DNA from: an uncultured Lentimicrobiaceae bacterium
GTDB lineage: Bacteria; Bacteroidota; Bacteroidia; Bacteroidales; 4484-276
Assembly: GCA_964490385.1 (NCBI GenBank)
Contig: CAZBDF010000002.1
Span: forward strand, 1-34,429
DNA: 34,429 nt
Direction: 5' to 3'
Both the position numbers and the translations under genes were made by a program. Below, piece by piece: positions 1-30,254 of the stretch (its first letter is position 1; the number at the start of each line of letters is the position of its first letter). The notes beneath the pieces are model-generated. The model was not told the DNA's origin. It was given only the letters and a program-made list of their open reading frames with translations, and did no database searches.

Positions 1-62
1 TCAGTATGTAATAAATAGTTGTTTTAAAACCATCCATTAAATTCGTGGTAGAACCTAAATAT
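1..62 (+). promoter_or_regulatory. Copy A of a ~60-bp conserved intergenic element. It is a candidate promoter for the baseplate gene block and may be truncated by the window edge.
   Basis: Positions 1-46 match 22762-22807 at 44/46 nt, and similarity continues with small indels to about 60. The conserved core has the form (T/G)TTG-N16-TAAATTCG, with the box at 38-45. This resembles the Bacteroidota -33 TTTG / -7 TAnnTTTG promoter with one mismatch. It lies about 28 nt upstream of the ATG at 73. Confidence 0.4.
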
Positions 63-72
63 TGAAGATTTT

Positions 73-243
73 ATGCCTCTGGAAATAAAAGAACTGCATA
101 TCAAAGCTTCTGTTTCAGATGAAACCGGAAGATCAGATAGCGCGGGAAATTCTAGTACTGCCAATGCTGAAGCAAATGAAGAATTAATTCAGGCATGTGT
201 CGATAAAGTTATGGAAATCCTCAGGGAGAAAAATGAACGCTAA
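73..243 (+). CDS. Small conserved eCIS protein (56 aa) at the Cis6/Afp6 position; resembles the DUF5908 small-protein family.
   Basis: ATG at 73 and TAA at 241-243, in frame. It is absent from the ORF track because it is under 60 aa. Translation: MPLEIKELHIKASVSDETGRSDSAGNSSTANAEANEELIQACVDKVMEILREKNER. It has a conserved-looking MP.EIKELHIK N-terminus, a low-complexity middle and a helical C-terminus. It abuts the next gene (stop at 243, ATG at 244), as small Cis6-type genes do ahead of Cis7. Confidence 0.55.
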   Translation: MPLEIKELHIKASVSDETGRSDSAGNSSTANAEANEELIQACVDKVMEILREKNER

Positions 244-966
244 ATGGCTGAGATACCAACAAAAATAAGAATTATACCCTACACCGACAAGGAAGTCAAA
301 AAGAAAGACAAAGAAGTGAAGGAATACATTGTTCCCGTTAACCCGGAACACTATTCTTTGCGCTACAAGGTGAAGTACGATATTAAACCAGCCCAGGGAT
401 CGCATGGTGTGAAAGAAAGATTTATATCAAGTATGCCCGAGGAACTAAAACTCGACTTTATTGTTGATGGCACCAATACAATTTATGGGTATAAATACAG
501 TGATGAGAGCAAGAAAACGGTTCCTGAACAGATCCAGCATTTCAAGAGTGTAGTGTATGATATGTCAGGAAAAATGCACCAACCCCGATTACTGAAAATT
601 ATGGGATTGGGTATTCAGCAAAAGGGAAAAGGTGATGTAACCTATGATGGGATCCTCACCGATCTGCAAATAACCTACACCCTCTTCAATCCCAATGGGG
701 AGCCCTTGCGCGCCAAAATAAGTGCTACATTTTTAGATTACTTGGAAACCAGGCGCCGCGTACTCGAAGAGAATAAGAAATCACCCGATCTTACACACCT
801 GAGTAAAGTAGTTGACAGCGACAAATTGCCTTTGATGAGCCATACCATGTATGATGATCCATCTTACTATCTGGAAGTAGCAAAAGTAAATGACCTGACA
901 AATTTCAGGGAATTAACCGTGGGGCAGGAACTTATTTTCCCACCCATCCAAAAATCAGCAAAATGA
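244..966 (+). CDS. LysM-domain tube-initiator/baseplate hub protein (Cis7/Afp7-like; the LysM resembles P2 gpX).
   Basis: 240-aa ORF. The C-terminus DKLPLMSHTMYDDPSYYLEVAKVNDLTNFRELTVGQELIFPP fits the LysM pattern (..Y.....IA..N.l.....L.vGq.L.iP). It sits immediately upstream of the spike gene, with an ATGA stop/start overlap at 963-966. Confidence 0.75.
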   Translation: MAEIPTKIRIIPYTDKEVKKKDKEVKEYIVPVNPEHYSLRYKVKYDIKPAQGSHGVKERFISSMPEELKLDFIVDGTNTIYGYKYSDESKKTVPEQIQHFKSVVYDMSGKMHQPRLLKIMGLGIQQKGKGDVTYDGILTDLQITYTLFNPNGEPLRAKISATFLDYLETRRRVLEENKKSPDLTHLSKVVDSDKLPLMSHTMYDDPSYYLEVAKVNDLTNFRELTVGQELIFPPIQKSAK

Positions 967-28090: not shown

Positions 28091-28094
28091 AATC

Positions 28095-28796
28095 ATGAAA
28101 CGTATAAATCGTCGTCACAAAAACCCTACTGCCAGGGAAGAAAATAAAACGCCATTTTTCTCCAAAACCACCGAAAGTTCCACATTGTCAGAAAAGAATA
28201 AAAATTCCTTCTTCCAGACCAAACTGACCATTGGAAGAAAAGAGGATCCTGAAGAAAAAGAAGCTGATATAGCTGCCAAAAACATTGTAAACAAAGCACC
28301 TCAAGAGAATATGGAAGAGGAAGCAGTTCAGGCTAAACGGAATATTCAAAAGCAGGAAGTTCCCGAGGAAGAGGAAGCAGTTCAGGCTAAACGGAATATT
28401 CAAAAGCAGGAAGAGGAGGAGGAACCTGTACAAGCGAAAATTGAAATTCAAAAGCAAGCTGAAGAAGAGGAAGAAACCGTTCAAACCAAACCTGATAAAA
28501 CTGATCCACAGAAAAGACAAGATATACTCTCTAATCTTAATAATACCAAAGGAGAAGGCAGTGCATTGCCCGAAAACATAATGGATAGTATGGGATCGGC
28601 CTTTGGTGTAGATTTTTCTGATGTAAGGATTCATACCAATAAAAATGCTGTTCAAATGAATAAAGAATTGCATTCGCAGGCATTTACACATGGGAAAGAT
28701 ATTTATTTCAATGAAGGCAAGTATAAGCCCGAAACTTCTGCTGGAAAACAACTGCTGGCGCATGAGTTGACCCATGTAGTGCAACAGAACATTTAA
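28095..28796 (+). CDS. Short DUF4157-only protein (233 aa) with an acidic repeat linker.
   Basis: N-terminal motif: FFQTKLTIGRKEDPEEKEADIAAKNIV. The E-rich linker carries repeated (V/I)Q(A/K)K motifs. The DUF4157 domain reads GEGSALPENIMDSMGSAFGVDFSDVRIHTNKNAVQMNKELHSQAFTHGKDIYFNEGKY...LLAHELTHVVQQNI, and the stop comes immediately after the domain. Confidence 0.82.
   Translation: MKRINRRHKNPTAREENKTPFFSKTTESSTLSEKNKNSFFQTKLTIGRKEDPEEKEADIAAKNIVNKAPQENMEEEAVQAKRNIQKQEVPEEEEAVQAKRNIQKQEEEEEPVQAKIEIQKQAEEEEETVQTKPDKTDPQKRQDILSNLNNTKGEGSALPENIMDSMGSAFGVDFSDVRIHTNKNAVQMNKELHSQAFTHGKDIYFNEGKYKPETSAGKQLLAHELTHVVQQNI
28313..28420 (+). repeat. In-frame 54-nt tandem duplication inside the DUF4157-only gene.
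   Basis: 28313-28359 is identical to 28367-28413 (47 nt exact, period 54). It encodes EEEAVQAKRNIQKQE twice, and a third, diverged copy follows (EEEEPVQAKIEIQKQ). Confidence 0.9.
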
Positions 28797-28889
28797 AGCA
28801 AAACCCCAAACTACAACAAAAGGCAAACGGTAAATCCACAATAAAACCCGCCAAAACACTTTTTAAAAAGGTTAATAAAATCTAATACT

Positions 28890-30254
28890 ATGCCTCAAAC
28901 TCATAAGTCCAAAACTCAAGACAACAACCACGAAGTTTTGAACAATGAATTGAAATGGTTTCAAGCTGTACTCCTTACACGTCTGCAACTGCACTTTGAA
29001 AAGGCTGCCCAACACAAAAGTATTTATGATATTAAAGCTCCTAAAATAAATAGTGTCAATAAGCCATATGGAAGGTTTATCGTTGAAAATAGCTTAAATT
29101 TTGCAGAAAGGTTGGTGCTTGTCCTATCCTTAATACCACATATCCGTCCAGACTTCATCGATCAAATAATTCAGGAAATCAACCCAGAGGGGGGAACCTT
29201 CCCGCAACTGGGAGGCATCCGGGGCAAAAACCATCGGGGGTTTCTGCCTACAGCTGAAACTGCACTGTTTATATTAAGTGGTGAGGATCTGGAAAGCCGT
29301 TTTGAAATACAGCAACTCTTTTCCCCTGACCATTTGTTTGCCCGGAAACAAGTTTTACAATTATCAGCAAACGGAACGTATGAACCGGCTTTAAGTGGCC
29401 AGTTGTTACTTGATCAGGAATTCGTGGAGACCATCACCCTGGGCAAAGCATCAAAACCACACTATGGCAATGAATTCCCTGCAGCCCTTATTTTAACAAA
29501 AATGGATTGGGACGATTTAGTATTACCTGCTCAAACCGAAAAACAGATTCAGGAAATAATGGTTTGGTTGTCGCACAGCAGTAAACTGATGAAAGAATTG
29601 GGCATGGACCGCAAGCTTAAACCAGGATACCGGGTTTTATTTCATGGCTCGCCGGGAACCGGAAAAACACTTACTGCAAATTTGCTCGGGAAATATACAT
29701 CACGCGATGTTTACCGGGTAGATCTGTCAACAGTTGTTTCTAAGTATATCGGGGAAACCGAAAAAAACCTAGCCAATTTGTTTAACCGTGCCGAAAATAA
29801 AGATTGGATACTCTTTTTTGATGAGGCAGATGCCCTTTTCGGAAAGCGTACAAATGTTCAGAATGCTCATGACAGATATGCAAACCAGGAGGTAGCATAT
29901 TTGCTCCAGCGCGTCGAAGATTACCGTGGCCTTGTTATTTTAGCTTCGAATTTTAAAAGCAATATTGATGAGGCATTTATCAGACGTTTTCAGTCGATAA
30001 TACACTTTCCGATGCCTAAATCAAATGAGCGCTTTCAGTTATGGCAGAAAGCTTTCCCTGAAAAAATAATATTGACGAAAGATATTAATCTCAAACATAT
30101 TTCGCAACAACATGAGCTGACCGGGGCAGATATAATGAACATAGTGCAATACGTTTGCCTTCATGTTTTATCAAAAGACAGTCTTGTTATTTCGAACGAA
30201 ACTTTAAAAGATGGTATTCAAAGGGAATTCATCAAGTCCGGGAAACTTTGTTGA
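28890..30254 (+). CDS. AAA+ ATPase of the eCIS type (Cis15/Afp15-like).
   Basis: Walker A: VLFHGSPGTGKTLTANLLG. Walker B: ILFFDEADALFGKR. Also IGETEKNLANLFNRAE, a second region of homology (VILASNFKSNIDEAFIRRF), and an N-terminal non-ATPase domain of ~230 aa. It is the terminal gene of the cluster. Confidence 0.9.
   Translation: MPQTHKSKTQDNNHEVLNNELKWFQAVLLTRLQLHFEKAAQHKSIYDIKAPKINSVNKPYGRFIVENSLNFAERLVLVLSLIPHIRPDFIDQIIQEINPEGGTFPQLGGIRGKNHRGFLPTAETALFILSGEDLESRFEIQQLFSPDHLFARKQVLQLSANGTYEPALSGQLLLDQEFVETITLGKASKPHYGNEFPAALILTKMDWDDLVLPAQTEKQIQEIMVWLSHSSKLMKELGMDRKLKPGYRVLFHGSPGTGKTLTANLLGKYTSRDVYRVDLSTVVSKYIGETEKNLANLFNRAENKDWILFFDEADALFGKRTNVQNAHDRYANQEVAYLLQRVEDYRGLVILASNFKSNIDEAFIRRFQSIIHFPMPKSNERFQLWQKAFPEKIILTKDINLKHISQQHELTGADIMNIVQYVCLHVLSKDSLVISNETLKDGIQREFIKSGKLC

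What the first reader, a model, noticed from the sequence alone, without database searches (positions are those of the whole stretch)
1..30254. Partial eCIS locus with an unusually large, non-canonical baseplate and periphery
The gene order and motifs identify a phage-tail-derived extracellular contractile injection system: Cis6-position ORF, LysM hub, VgrG, PAAR, gp25, baseplate J, S74 fibre, Cis12-like, unknown 1526-aa protein, tape measure, DUF4157 proteins and a terminal AAA+ ATPase.

Three things differ from the Afp/PVC layout as I remember it:
- The fibre gene sits between the two wedge genes.
- Three consecutive wedge and peripheral proteins total about 4900 aa.
- A ParA gene sits in the payload module.

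No sheath, tube or cap genes and no lysis or release genes are in the window.
Basis: partly seen in the sequence, partly recalled or inferred. Interest (0 to 1): 0.65.

Follow-up and report, generated by a model that had tools for sequence, protein, structure and literature searches.

The report
AlgoCIS/tCIS-type injection system with ParA
This is the baseplate, fibre, tape-measure and cargo half of a phage-tail-like contractile injection system whose "odd" large baseplate is the layout already solved for the Anabaena and Algoriphagus systems. Its ParA gene, however, belongs to an apparently undescribed ParA lineage found only inside such cargo modules.

Summary
Window 73-30254 is one + strand operon: Cis6, Cis7, VgrG, PAAR, gp25, Cis11, an S74 fibre, Cis12, a 1526-aa protein, tape measure, DUF4157 protein, ParA, DUF4157 protein, AAA+ Cis15.

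The refutation test fails. Near-identical contigs carry cap, cap adaptor, sheath and two tube genes directly upstream.

The "non-canonical" reading holds only against Afp/PVC. Sheath, Cis11, Cis12, the fibre N-terminus and the 1526-aa protein (Cis19/Alg19) best match the solved Anabaena tCIS, then AlgoCIS. Anabaena has the same order cis11-cis13-cis12-cis19. Large Cis11, extended Cis12, Cis19, cap adaptor and two DUF4157 cargo proteins are published clade Ib features.

Differences here:
- Cis13 is a 716-aa fibre with no membrane helix.
- Cis12 carries more YegP-like repeats.

ParA is the new point.
- Sixteen ParA homologues lying in CIS cargo modules were found. The eleven put in a tree form one clade (100/100 bootstraps) apart from 74 other ParAs.
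- In most loci the next gene encodes a DUF4157 protein starting with a basic RRSRRxRNP-type peptide.
- A genome scan for that peptide returned six loci, all with this ParA just upstream.
- I found no paper describing this.

Verdict: ordinary CIS member with an undescribed ParA-adaptor pair.

The parts
1..55 (+). 3' end of a roughly 220-350 nt dispersed intergenic repeat lying between the second tube gene (upstream of the window) and cis6. The second copy is at 22596-22816.
   Evidence: The two copies were found by blastn (91% over 89 nt), and the wider alignment shows shared blocks interrupted by two GC-rich inserts in the upstream copy. Three more copies lie in unrelated contexts in metagenomes.
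73..243 (+). Cis6-position protein (DUF5908), 56 aa.
   Evidence: Pfam DUF5908 7e-21, full length.
244..966 (+). Cis7, a tube-like baseplate hub protein of 240 aa. The C-terminal region looks LysM-like by eye only.
   Evidence: Pfam CIS_tube 3e-40 over residues 6-171. Sequence read.
963..2735 (+). Cis8, the VgrG spike, 590 aa.
   Evidence: TIGR01646 4e-78. Phage_base_V 4e-19.
2769..3059 (+). Cis10, the PAAR spike tip, 96 aa.
   Evidence: PAAR_motif 4e-24.
3061..3486 (+). Cis9, the gp25-like sheath initiator, 141 aa from the ATG at 3061. The longest ORF starts at a TTG at 3049.
   Evidence: GPW_gp25 9e-22. Called as 141 aa on related contigs.
3504..7235 (+). Cis11, the gp6/Baseplate_J-like wedge protein with the large insertions that form the spike cage in tCIS and AlgoCIS. 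It is 1243 aa from the ATG at 3504; the longest ORF starts at a TTG at 3483.
   Evidence: Matches All3317 at 1.8e-186 over residues 16-1246, Alg11 at 6.7e-137, and Pvc11 and Afp11. TIGR02243 C-terminal part.
7248..9398 (+). Cis13-type tail fibre, 716 aa. It has an N-terminal baseplate anchor (residues 2-87), a CBM5/12-like segment, four roughly 100-aa beta-rich repeats and a C-terminal S74-type intramolecular chaperone domain (about residues 600-716). No Ser-Lys dyad can be recognised and there is no membrane helix.
   Evidence: - Sequence match to All3316 (tCIS Cis13): 1.6e-18.
- Pfam S74: 23.7 bits, above the 22-bit threshold, on the C-terminal fragment.
- Foldseek on the AF2 model: 7b5h_AE, MyRF ICA domain 7dc3 and intramolecular chaperone 3gw6.
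- 62 homologues, nearly all of similar full length, most carrying PF13884.
- Cleavage-site columns examined; hydropathy scan.
9669..16106 (+). Cis12, the gp6/gp7-like wedge protein, 2145 aa. The conserved core is residues 1-716 and about 2000-2145. Between them lies an extension of about 1250 aa made of YegP/DUF1508-like repeats.
   Evidence: Matches All3315 at 2.2e-218 and Alg12 at 9e-120. The extension aligns at several offsets to All3315 residues 660-1176. DUF1508 scores 27.7 bits, above the 22-bit threshold. At least 10 clear repeats were counted.
16123..20703 (+). Cis19/Alg19 homologue, 1526 aa. This is the trimeric peripheral protein that forms the 'crown' in tCIS and the tail fibre with a TssK-like shoulder in AlgoCIS.
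   Evidence: Matches All3314 at 1.3e-50 (residues 7-547) and Alg19 (9wt0) at 5.5e-22. The roles come from PMC8894136 and PMC13314943.
20725..22584 (+). Cis14 tape measure protein, 619 aa.
   Evidence: CIS_TMP 2.2e-108, full length.
22596..22816 (+). Second copy of the dispersed intergenic repeat, in the 468-nt spacer before the cargo module.
   Evidence: No Rfam hit. No stable fold (z = -1.0).
23053..27294 (+). Large DUF4157 (eCIS_core) cargo protein, Cgo2-like, 1413 aa. It has a disordered N-terminal region, an HExxH DUF4157 domain (residues 200-275) and a conserved module of about 900 aa. That module has an HNH-like VDH..E.QLGG..N.WLL..N motif and a Gly-rich beta region.
   Evidence: eCIS_core 2.7e-31. 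There are 566 cluster representatives of the C-terminal module, mostly 1150-1300 aa long. Invariant motif columns. Weak HNH hits. The cargo role is inferred by analogy with AlgoCIS Cgo1 and Cgo2.
27320..28090 (+). CIS-associated ParA/MinD-family ATPase, 256 aa. The Walker A motif is KGGSGKT and the signature lysine is kept.
   Evidence: AAA_31 1.2e-60. Every close relative whose context was examined lies in a CIS cargo module, and the eleven put in the tree form one clade at 100/100 bootstraps. Clade-specific residues.
28095..28796 (+). Small DUF4157 protein, 233 aa. It has a basic N-terminal peptide (MKRINRRHKNP), an acidic repeat region and a DUF4157 domain at the very C-terminus, with no effector domain. 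It is the proposed ParA partner or adaptor.
   Evidence: eCIS_core 3.7e-31 over residues 158-232. Sequence. The N-terminal peptide is conserved next to ParA in other loci.
28890..30254 (+). Cis15 AAA+ ATPase, 454 aa, the last gene of the operon.
   Evidence: Pfam AAA 1.2e-27. It is 49-62% identical to the terminal ATPase of related loci.
30428..30500 (-). tRNA-Glu (TTC), marking the 3' boundary of the cluster.
   Evidence: ARAGORN. Rfam tRNA 62.6 bits.

Best explanation
The window holds about 30 kb of a roughly 36-kb contractile injection system (CIS) operon. It belongs to the clade that contains the Anabaena thylakoid-anchored CIS and the Algoriphagus AlgoCIS. The host is an uncultured bacterium, probably a member of the Flavobacteriaceae.

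Proposed mechanism, inferred from the solved relatives:
- Cis7, VgrG and PAAR form the hub and spike.
- gp25, Cis11 and Cis12 form six wedges. The Cis11 insertions build a cage around the spike.
- Two peripheral proteins attach to the wedges: trimers of the 716-aa Cis13-type fibre and of the 1526-aa Cis19/Alg19 protein.
- The tape measure sets the length of the tube and sheath, whose genes lie upstream.
- The cap and cap adaptor close the distal end.
- The two DUF4157 proteins are loaded into the tube lumen through their disordered N-terminal regions, with help from the AAA+ Cis15.
- Sheath contraction drives spike and cargo into a target.

No structural protein has a membrane helix and both peripheral proteins look like fibres. 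The likeliest mode is therefore an extracellular particle released by lysis, as for AlgoCIS.

The ParA gene is a dedicated accessory. I propose that it is a ParA/MinD-type ATPase working with the basic N-terminal peptide of the small DUF4157 protein encoded next to it. By analogy with ParA-ParB and McdA-McdB, this pair would tether or distribute the cargo adaptor, or whole particles, on the nucleoid. This last step is inference only.
For: Core identity of the system:
- Pfam and NCBIfam hits support the core genes.
- The upstream contigs carry cap, cap adaptor, sheath and tubes.

The best solved relative is always the Anabaena tCIS, followed by AlgoCIS:
- Sheath 4.9e-176.
- Cis11 1.8e-186.
- Cis12 2.2e-218.
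- Cis19 1.3e-50.
- Cis13 N-terminus 1.6e-18.
- Cap adaptor 1.1e-16.
- The gene order is the same as in Anabaena.
- The roles of the cage, Alg19 fibre, cap adaptor and Cgo cargo come from PMC8894135, PMC13314943 and bioRxiv 2026.05.27.728243.

Mode of action:
- No transmembrane segment is predicted in any structural protein.
- The fibre fold is confirmed.

ParA:
- Five of five nearest relatives looked up lie in CIS cargo modules.
- In a genome scan, the six best ParA loci (51-60% identity) all have tape measure (three of the six), DUF4157 or Cis15 genes as neighbours. The other 74 (49% identity or less) have none.
- The eleven CIS-context ParAs placed in the tree are monophyletic in 100 of 100 bootstraps.
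- The catalytic lysines are kept and there are clade-specific substitutions.
- The downstream DUF4157 protein starts with an RRSRRxRNP-like peptide in the window, L011, L014, L016, L020 and L022.
- The reverse scan for that peptide returned six loci, all with the ParA 70-90 nt upstream.
- Loci without ParA (L009, L010) lack the motif.
Against: - No particle, release or injection has been observed, and no lysis gene lies in the roughly 36 kb seen.
- The closest solved relative is membrane-anchored, not extracellular. The Cis12 extension is homologous to the part that contacts the thylakoid membrane in Anabaena.
- Three of the first eleven ParA loci (L017, L018, L019) lack the basic peptide on the adjacent DUF4157 protein. 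In L019 and L021 ParA directly abuts Cis15. The partner could therefore be another protein.
- AlgoCIS loads DUF4157 cargo without any ParA, so ParA is not needed for loading in general.
- ParA function and the peptide interaction are untested.
- The match of Cgo_1413 to AlgoCIS Cgo2 rests on architecture and length only, because I had no Cgo2 sequence.
Confidence: 0.85

Rival explanations
1. The system is not released. It works from inside the cell, anchored to a membrane or acting in cell death, like the Anabaena tCIS, the Amoebophilus T6SS subtype iv or the Streptomyces cytoplasmic CIS.
For: - Every structural protein compared is closer to the Anabaena tCIS than to AlgoCIS.
- The Cis12 extension is homologous to the tCIS 'wide connector' region.
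- No lysis cassette was seen.
- Extracellular and cell-anchored systems are intermixed in this clade (PMC8894135).
Against: - Cis13 here lacks the transmembrane helix that positions tCIS. It is instead a 716-aa fibre with a chaperone domain.
- No transmembrane segment is predicted in Cis11, Cis12 or Cis19.
- The host has no thylakoids.
- AlgoCIS also lacks a lysis cassette in its cluster as described, yet it is extracellular.
Confidence: 0.2
2. The ParA gene is a passenger with no role in the injection system. It could be a duplicated partition gene that hitch-hikes in a variable cargo slot, which in other loci holds immunity or accessory genes.
For: - The slot between the two DUF4157 genes is variable. 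It holds WD40 in L009 and SUKH-4 immunity in L010, and SMI1_KNR4 lies next to CbiA in Chitinophaga pinensis.
- CbiA is not statistically enriched in eCIS operons in Geller 2021 (9 genes, odds ratio 0.49).
- L009, a locus without ParA, has a Cis15 as similar to the window's as those of several ParA-bearing loci.
Against: - The clade is monophyletic in 100 of 100 bootstraps.
- It has diverged to 51-82% identity while staying in the same position relative to the DUF4157 and Cis15 genes. It occurs in at least 16 loci from Saprospiraceae, Lewinellaceae, Chitinophagaceae, a Bacteroidales genome and this Flavobacteriaceae-like host.
- The catalytic residues are kept.
- It co-occurs with a specific N-terminal peptide on the neighbouring protein in both search directions.
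Confidence: 0.2
3. The region is the tail module of a prophage or an R-type tailocin rather than a CIS of the Afp/PVC/AlgoCIS superfamily.
For: VgrG, PAAR, gp25, baseplate J, sheath and tube families are shared with myophage tails. The S74 fibre domain is typical of phages.
Against: - CIS-specific families are present: CIS_TMP, CIS_tube, DUF5908, Pvc16_N, eCIS_core and the terminal AAA+.
- The best PDB matches are all CIS; T4 and pyocin sheaths score only 1e-5 to 1e-6.
- No capsid, portal, terminase, integrase or lysis genes occur in about 40 kb.
Confidence: 0.02

Closest known systems
Anabaena sp. PCC 7120 thylakoid-anchored CIS (tCIS; all3313-all3327; PDB 7B5H/7B5I; PMC8894136)
   Same: - It is the best solved match for sheath, Cis11 (full length), the Cis12 core and repeat extension, the Cis19 N-terminal half, the Cis13 N-terminal anchor and the cap adaptor.
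- The gene order cis11-cis13-cis12-cis19 is identical.
- Both have a two-protein cap.
   Different: - Cis13 is 716 aa with a fibre shaft and an S74-type chaperone domain and has no membrane helix. In Anabaena it is 154 aa with a membrane helix at residues 122-154.
- Cis12 is 2145 aa against 1335 aa, with more YegP-like repeats.
- The host is a Bacteroidota member without thylakoids.
- This cargo module contains ParA. No ParA is named among the Anabaena genes quoted.
Algoriphagus machipongonensis AlgoCIS (PDB 7AEB/7ADZ/9WSZ/9WT0; PMC8894135, PMC13314943)
   Same: - The host phylum is the same.
- Both have a cage-type Cis11, Cis12, an Alg19-type peripheral trimer, cap plus cap adaptor, two DUF4157 cargo proteins (one small, one of about 1200-1400 aa) and a terminal AAA+.
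- The most likely mode of action, an extracellular particle with fibres, is the same.
   Different: - The two AlgoCIS papers searched name no Alg13. The window has an extra Cis13-type fibre gene between cis11 and cis12.
- Alg12 is 933 aa and has no long repeat extension.
- Sequence similarity is lower than to tCIS.
- AlgoCIS has no ParA described.
Afp / PVC (Serratia, Photorhabdus)
   Same: The core set Cis1-2, 5-12, 14-16 is shared. Afp11/12 and Pvc11/12 are detectable homologues.
   Different: - Afp and PVC have much smaller Cis11 (607-728 aa) and Cis12 (about 950 aa).
- Their fibre gene (Afp13) follows cis12 and is adenovirus-like.
- They have no Cis19, no cap adaptor and a single-protein cap at the end of the operon.
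- Their cargo lacks DUF4157.
ParA/MinD positioning ATPases with a partner protein (ParA-ParB; McdA-McdB of carboxysomes)
   Same: - The ParA has a deviant Walker A with signature lysine and a full-length AAA_31/CbiA fold.
- The adjacent gene product has a short, very basic N-terminal peptide. In those systems such a peptide is the usual ATPase-stimulating element (my own knowledge; McdA summarised in the abstract listed).
   Different: - There is no ParB domain and no parS.
- The putative partner is a DUF4157 CIS cargo-type protein.
- The Walker A motif is KGGSGKT where all 74 other ParAs compared have KGGVGKT.
- The cargo, if any, would be a phage-tail-like particle. No experiment exists.

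Membership tests
Contractile injection system of the Afp/PVC/AlgoCIS superfamily (eCIS-like) | Sheath, inner tube and cap (Cis16) genes in the same operon. | tested here: met
   These genes are not in the window. They lie directly upstream on contigs that are 98.9-99.9% identical to it: Pvc16_N, Phage_sheath_1/1C and two Phage_T4_gp19 genes. The sheath matches CIS sheaths at 1e-176 to 1e-44.
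Contractile injection system of the Afp/PVC/AlgoCIS superfamily (eCIS-like) | Baseplate and spike set: Cis7, VgrG, PAAR, gp25, Cis11, Cis12. | tested here: met
Contractile injection system of the Afp/PVC/AlgoCIS superfamily (eCIS-like) | CIS-type tape measure and a terminal AAA+ ATPase (Cis15), with no head or packaging genes. | tested here: met
   CIS_TMP 2e-108 and AAA 1e-27. No capsid, terminase or portal ORF was found in the window or in the 6 kb upstream.
Contractile injection system of the Afp/PVC/AlgoCIS superfamily (eCIS-like) | Particles are released and act extracellularly. | not testable with these tools
   Only indirect evidence is available: no membrane helices in the structural proteins, two fibre-like proteins, and no lysis genes seen.
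Clade Ib architecture (AlgoCIS / tCIS / MAC / T6SS subtype iv) | A cap adaptor (Cis16B) in addition to a short cap. | tested here: met
   The 439-aa protein upstream matches All3326 (1e-16) and the AlgoCIS cap adaptor (8e-6). The cap is 207 aa.
Clade Ib architecture (AlgoCIS / tCIS / MAC / T6SS subtype iv) | An enlarged Cis11 carrying the cage-forming insertion. | tested here: met
   One continuous alignment runs over residues 16-1246 against All3317 residues 8-1229, at 1.8e-186. The cage itself is inferred from the homologues' structures.
Clade Ib architecture (AlgoCIS / tCIS / MAC / T6SS subtype iv) | A Cis19/Alg19 peripheral trimer with a TssK-like shoulder. | tested here: met
   Residues 7-547 match All3314 (1.3e-50) and residues 324-542 match Alg19 (5.5e-22). 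The trimeric state was not tested.
Clade Ib architecture (AlgoCIS / tCIS / MAC / T6SS subtype iv) | DUF4157 cargo proteins with a disordered N-terminal loading region. | tested here: inconclusive
   There are two eCIS_core proteins with low-complexity, charged N-terminal regions. Loading into the tube was not tested. The small one has no C-terminal effector domain.
Thylakoid-anchored CIS (tCIS) in the strict sense | A Cis13 with a C-terminal transmembrane helix that anchors the particle. | tested here: not met
   Only residues 2-87 match All3316. No hydrophobic segment is present. The rest of the protein is fibre plus an S74 domain.
Peptidase S74 / intramolecular chaperone auto-processing domain | The chaperone domain fold at the C-terminus of a trimeric fibre. 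| tested here: met
   Pfam gives 23.7 bits against a cut-off of 22 on the fragment. Foldseek matches MyRF ICA 7dc3 with probability 1.0 and 3gw6 with probability 0.8-0.97. The model has mean pLDDT 65, but the C-terminal domain scores 75-90.
Peptidase S74 / intramolecular chaperone auto-processing domain | A Ser-Lys catalytic dyad (S-D-x-R-x-K) for self-cleavage. | tested here: not met
   Pfam profile positions 1-10 are not matched. At the expected place the window has A606-D-R-Q-K-M611. Among 41 family members the columns are T(31)/A(9)/S(1) and M/L/I/V. The registration with the canonical motif was done by eye.
ParA/MinD-family ATPase | A deviant Walker A with signature lysine and the full-length fold. 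| tested here: met
   AAA_31 1.2e-60 and CbiA 4e-25. K10 and K15 are invariant.
ParA/MinD-family ATPase | A chromosome- or plasmid-partition context (ParB and parS). | tested here: not met
   The neighbours are DUF4157 genes and Cis15, and there is no ParB in the window. The same context holds in all 16 related loci.
ParA/MinD-family ATPase | A partner protein that stimulates the ATPase through a basic N-terminal peptide. | not testable with these tools
   A candidate exists: an RRSRRxRNP-type N-terminus on the downstream DUF4157 protein, co-occurring with ParA in both search directions. Binding and stimulation are untested.

The most novel reading that the evidence does not exclude
A subset of Bacteroidota contractile injection systems has recruited its own ParA-type ATPase. 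The partner would be a small DUF4157 protein recognised through a basic RRSRRxRNP-like N-terminal peptide. Together they would form a two-protein positioning system, of the ParA-ParB or McdA-McdB kind, that uses the nucleoid to place, space or partition phage-tail-like particles or their cargo-loading intermediates. If so, injection-system particles would join the list of large cytoplasmic cargos handled by ParA/MinD ATPases. It would also give the DUF4157 domain protein a role other than toxin.
Probability: 0.35. Interest if true: 0.7.

Novelty: new variant of a known kind. Interest (0 to 1): 0.5.

Why it matters
The baseplate part mainly corrects the record. The 'non-canonical' layout is the clade Ib layout already solved by cryo-EM, so this locus adds one more uncultured member. 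Its variations (a long S74 fibre in the Cis13 position, a Cis12 with an expanded repeat array) could inform fibre and baseplate engineering.

The ParA part could matter more. How CIS particles are organised in the producing cell, and what the conserved DUF4157 domain does, are open questions. The AlgoCIS work shows that DUF4157 is dispensable for loading. A dedicated ParA with a matching peptide on a DUF4157 protein that has no effector domain gives a concrete hypothesis. It can be tested genetically because cultured strains carry the module: Chitinophaga arvensicola DSM 3695 and C. pinensis.

Tried and rejected
- **Close relatives of the tape measure in representative genomes.** None were found. 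In the large protein collection only seven homologues appeared, the next best at 45% identity. The lineage is therefore poorly sampled, and I did not attempt a Cis2/Cis11 phylogeny.
- **2OG-Fe(II) oxygenase hit in Cis12** (E about 1e-3). Rejected. The region consists of YegP/DUF1508-like repeats that align to the Anabaena extension.
- **HSP20 hit in the large cargo protein**. It is below threshold and lies inside a Gly-rich beta region, so I did not use it.
- **The duplicated spacer element as a dedicated CIS regulatory RNA or promoter.** Rejected for four reasons:
  - No Rfam family matches.
  - There is no fold stability (z = -1.0).
  - Sigma-70-type matches are no more frequent than in shuffled sequence.
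  - Further copies sit in unrelated contexts, once in the opposite orientation.

  It is a dispersed repeat. Bacteroidota-type promoter motifs were checked only by eye, without a clear match.
- **Fold or family of the large cargo C-terminal module.** A profile of 40 members found nothing in the PDB and nothing in Pfam beyond DUF4157.
- **First ParA tree attempt.** It timed out and was redone with a faster distance method.
- **First motif alignment for the reverse scan.** It was too divergent for the tool and was redone with four sequences.
- **ParA as chromosomal Soj.** Rejected on context and phylogeny.

Full report
**What is in the window**

Positions 73-30254 form one uninterrupted + strand gene array. 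The profile searches give these assignments:
- DUF5908 (Cis6 position)
- CIS_tube (Cis7)
- VgrG (TIGR01646, 4e-78)
- PAAR
- gp25
- a 1243/1250-aa protein with weak Baseplate_J/TIGR02243 hits
- a 716-aa protein with a weak S74 hit
- a 2145-aa protein
- a 1526-aa protein with no hit
- CIS_TMP (2e-108)
- a 1413-aa eCIS_core (DUF4157) protein
- ParA (AAA_31, 1e-60)
- a 233-aa eCIS_core protein
- an AAA ATPase

A tRNA-Glu on the other strand (30428-30500) closes the cluster. Two Peptidase_C10/CUB proteins with type IX secretion sorting domains follow, which points to Bacteroidota.

An exact-sequence look-up of Cis7 returned six metagenomic contigs. L002 is 99.9% identical and L001 98.9% identical to the window over 10,966 nt. 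In them window position 1 falls in the spacer after the second tube gene. The preceding 6.2 kb encode, on the same strand:
- a LytTR response regulator
- a 104-aa protein
- a Pvc16_N cap (207 aa)
- a 439-aa protein
- a sheath (469 aa)
- two gp19-type tube proteins

Sheath, tube and cap are therefore present, and the CIS reading stands.

**The 'non-canonical' baseplate**

Sequence searches against all PDB chains settle this point.
- The 1250-aa protein aligns end to end with Anabaena All3317 (1.8e-186). It also matches Alg11, Pvc11 and Afp11.
- The 2145-aa protein matches All3315 (2.2e-218), Alg12, Pvc12 and Afp12.
- The 'unknown' 1526-aa protein matches All3314 (1.3e-50) and AlgoCIS Alg19 (5.5e-22).
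- The first 87 residues of the 716-aa protein match All3316 (1.6e-18).
- The upstream 439-aa protein matches All3326 and the AlgoCIS cap adaptor.
- The sheath matches All3325 (4.9e-176) ahead of the AlgoCIS sheath.

The Anabaena paper names All3316 as Cis13, All3315 as Cis12 and all3314 as cis19. It describes a Cis11 cage, a Cis19 crown and a Cis12 extension (PMC8894136). The locus tags give the order cis11-cis13-cis12-cis19, exactly as here.

The AlgoCIS papers describe the following (PMC8894135; PMC13314943; bioRxiv 2026.05.27.728243):
- the cage
- the cap adaptor
- the 1443-aa Alg19 tail-fibre trimer with a TssK-like shoulder
- two DUF4157 cargo proteins in the tube lumen, loaded through their disordered N-terminal regions with the help of the AAA+ Alg15

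Fibres with an S74 fold in Bacteroidota, and loci with several fibre genes, are also catalogued (PMC12923769; PMC12210884). So 'fibre gene between the wedge genes' and 'about 4900 aa of wedge and periphery' are features of a known, structurally solved clade. They are new only relative to Afp/PVC.

**What differs from the solved relatives**

1. The Cis13 homologue is a real fibre.
   - After the anchor come a CBM5/12-like stretch and four roughly 100-aa repeats.
   - The C-terminal domain passes the Pfam S74 threshold when scanned alone.
   - In an AlphaFold model (mean pLDDT 65; C-terminal part 75-90) that domain matches the MyRF and endosialidase intramolecular chaperone domains.
   - It has no hydrophobic helix, unlike Anabaena Cis13.
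   - The family has 62 members, most about 700 aa long. They come from Bacteroidota and cyanobacteria and are 27-75% identical.
   - At the place of the canonical S-D-x-R-x-K cleavage motif the family has T/A-D-x-x-x-M, and the window protein has Ala. Self-cleavage is therefore doubtful.
2. Cis12 carries an insertion of about 1250 aa made of YegP/DUF1508-like repeats.
   - The insertion aligns at several offsets to the Anabaena extension.
   - Relatives have Cis12 proteins of 2235-2397 aa.

**The cargo module**

Related loci found through the tape measure show a common plan. The order is tape measure, a large DUF4157 protein, a variable gene, a second DUF4157 protein and then Cis15.
- The variable slot holds WD40 in L009 and a SUKH-4 immunity gene after a deaminase toxin in L010.
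- The region of the window's large protein after the DUF4157 domain is a widespread conserved module. It has 566 representatives at 50% clustering, mostly 1150-1300 aa long, which is the size reported for AlgoCIS Cgo2.
- That module has an invariant HNH-like motif but no PDB or Pfam match.
- The small protein ends three residues after the HExxH motif and so has no effector domain.

**ParA**

The closest relatives of the window's ParA in a 5.8-billion-protein collection are 56-77% identical. All five that I looked up sit in CIS cargo modules.

A scan of 185,579 species genomes with an alignment of these ParAs gave 80 loci.
- The six best (51-60% identity) all have DUF4157 and Cis15 genes beside ParA, and three of them also a tape measure. 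They are Chitinophaga arvensicola DSM 3695 and genomes assembled from metagenomes of Saprospiraceae, Lewinellaceae and unclassified Bacteroidia/Bacteroidota.
- The other 74 (49% identity or less) have none of these neighbours.

In a neighbour-joining tree the eleven CIS-context ParAs are monophyletic in 100 of 100 bootstraps. They keep both Walker A lysines. They share substitutions at sites that are invariant in the others, for example KGGSGKT instead of KGGVGKT.

Supplementary data of Geller 2021 list a CbiA gene between DUF4157 genes in Chitinophaga pinensis. CbiA is not enriched there (9 genes, odds ratio 0.49), which may explain why it went unnoticed. Full-text searches found no paper linking ParA to these systems. 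The library is incomplete, so this is absence of evidence only.

**A candidate partner**

The DUF4157 protein encoded right after ParA begins with a conserved, very basic peptide:
- window: MKRINRRHKNP
- L011: MKTAFRRSRRHRNP
- L014: MRRSTRRSRRHRNP
- L016: MKSRSRSSRRLRNP
- L020: MESTRRSRRHRNP
- L022: MKRSTRRSRRLRNP

The first, large DUF4157 proteins lack it. So do the second DUF4157 proteins of the ParA-less loci L009 and L010.

The reverse search, for genomes encoding [TF]RRSRR[HL]RNP or the adjacent PFFS motif, returned six loci, five of them new. In all six the CIS-type ParA ends 70-90 nt upstream.

Short basic N-terminal peptides are how ParB, McdB and similar partners engage their ParA (my own knowledge). 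I therefore propose a ParA-adaptor pair.

Caveats:
- L017, L018 and L019 lack the motif on the neighbouring DUF4157 protein.
- In L019 and L021 ParA abuts Cis15 directly.

**Host and context**

The RapA-like gene upstream of the regulator (L004) is 79-84% identical in protein, and up to 85% in DNA, to those of Flavobacteriaceae (uncultured Flavobacteriales, Tenacibaculum, Aureibaculum). In those genomes similarity stops at the end of that gene, and no CIS gene lies within 10 kb. The cluster is therefore an accessory island in this lineage. Its nearest CIS relatives are in Saprospiraceae, Lewinellaceae, Chitinophagaceae and cyanobacteria.

**Verdict**

- The CIS interpretation is supported.
- The novelty claimed for the baseplate is not supported.
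- The ParA remark leads to a conserved, apparently undescribed accessory module.
- The mode of action (extracellular) and the ParA mechanism are inferences.

Noticed in passing
window 1-55 and 22596-22816; L002 5873-6221: A dispersed intergenic repeat of about 220 nt occurs twice in the operon, before cis6 and before the cargo module. The upstream copy is interrupted by two GC-rich, hairpin-like inserts. Three further copies occur in JGI metagenome contigs in unrelated contexts: upstream of an OmpA gene, and between a FUSC-like and a phosphorylase gene in the opposite orientation. No Rfam match and no stable fold were found.
   Followed up: partly
window 11700-15500 (Cis12 residues about 670-1940): The Cis12 extension is an array of at least ten YegP/DUF1508-like repeats of about 37 aa. 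It is homologous to the Anabaena Cis12 'wide connector' extension but about 800 aa longer. No paper in the library links YegP/DUF1508 to injection systems.
   Followed up: partly
window 9045-9398 (fibre residues 600-716): The S74-type chaperone domain of the fibre lacks a recognisable Ser-Lys cleavage dyad. The window protein has Ala and Met at those places, and the family has Thr/Ala and a hydrophobic residue. The domain may therefore stay attached. The fibre family is unusually well conserved over its whole length between Bacteroidota and cyanobacteria.
   Followed up: partly
window 28095-28796: The small DUF4157 protein has no domain after the HExxH motif. It contains three to four tandem acidic repeats (EEEAVQAKRNIQKQE) between the basic N-terminus and the DUF4157 domain.
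   Followed up: no
window 24350-24500 (large cargo protein residues about 435-480): An invariant VDH..E.QLGG..N.WLL..N motif, HNH-like, is present in all 40 aligned members of the roughly 1200-aa DUF4157 protein family. Pfam HNH reaches only E = 0.12 here and 0.002 in one relative. One hydrophobic segment lies at residues 1111-1131.
   Followed up: partly
window 30638-32746 and 32861-34414 (minus strand): Two tandem paralogous secreted proteases follow the cluster: Peptidase_C10 (streptopain-like) plus two CUB domains plus a type IX secretion sorting domain. The first also has the Spi inhibitor prodomain. The second ORF appears N-terminally shortened, starting at position 28 of the C10 profile.
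   Followed up: no
L004 1-706 compared with L111-L121: Similarity to related Flavobacteriaceae genomes ends exactly at the stop of the RapA-like gene. The LytTR regulator and the CIS operon have no counterpart within 10 kb there. GC content is 37% in the RapA-like gene, 41-42% in the cluster and 31-35% in the relatives.
   Followed up: partly
L024, L041, L054 (about 9992-11300): The next most similar ParA group in Saprospiraceae and Lewinellaceae (45-49% identity) is followed by a small 156-168-aa protein starting MAKKRF/MSKKRF..L..LF. This looks like another orphan ParA with its own small partner.
   Followed up: no
L002 108-851 and 1017-1331: A LytTR-type response regulator with a weak receiver domain, and a 104-aa protein with no family match, sit at the head of the operon on the same strand. 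They are possible regulators of the cluster.
   Followed up: no
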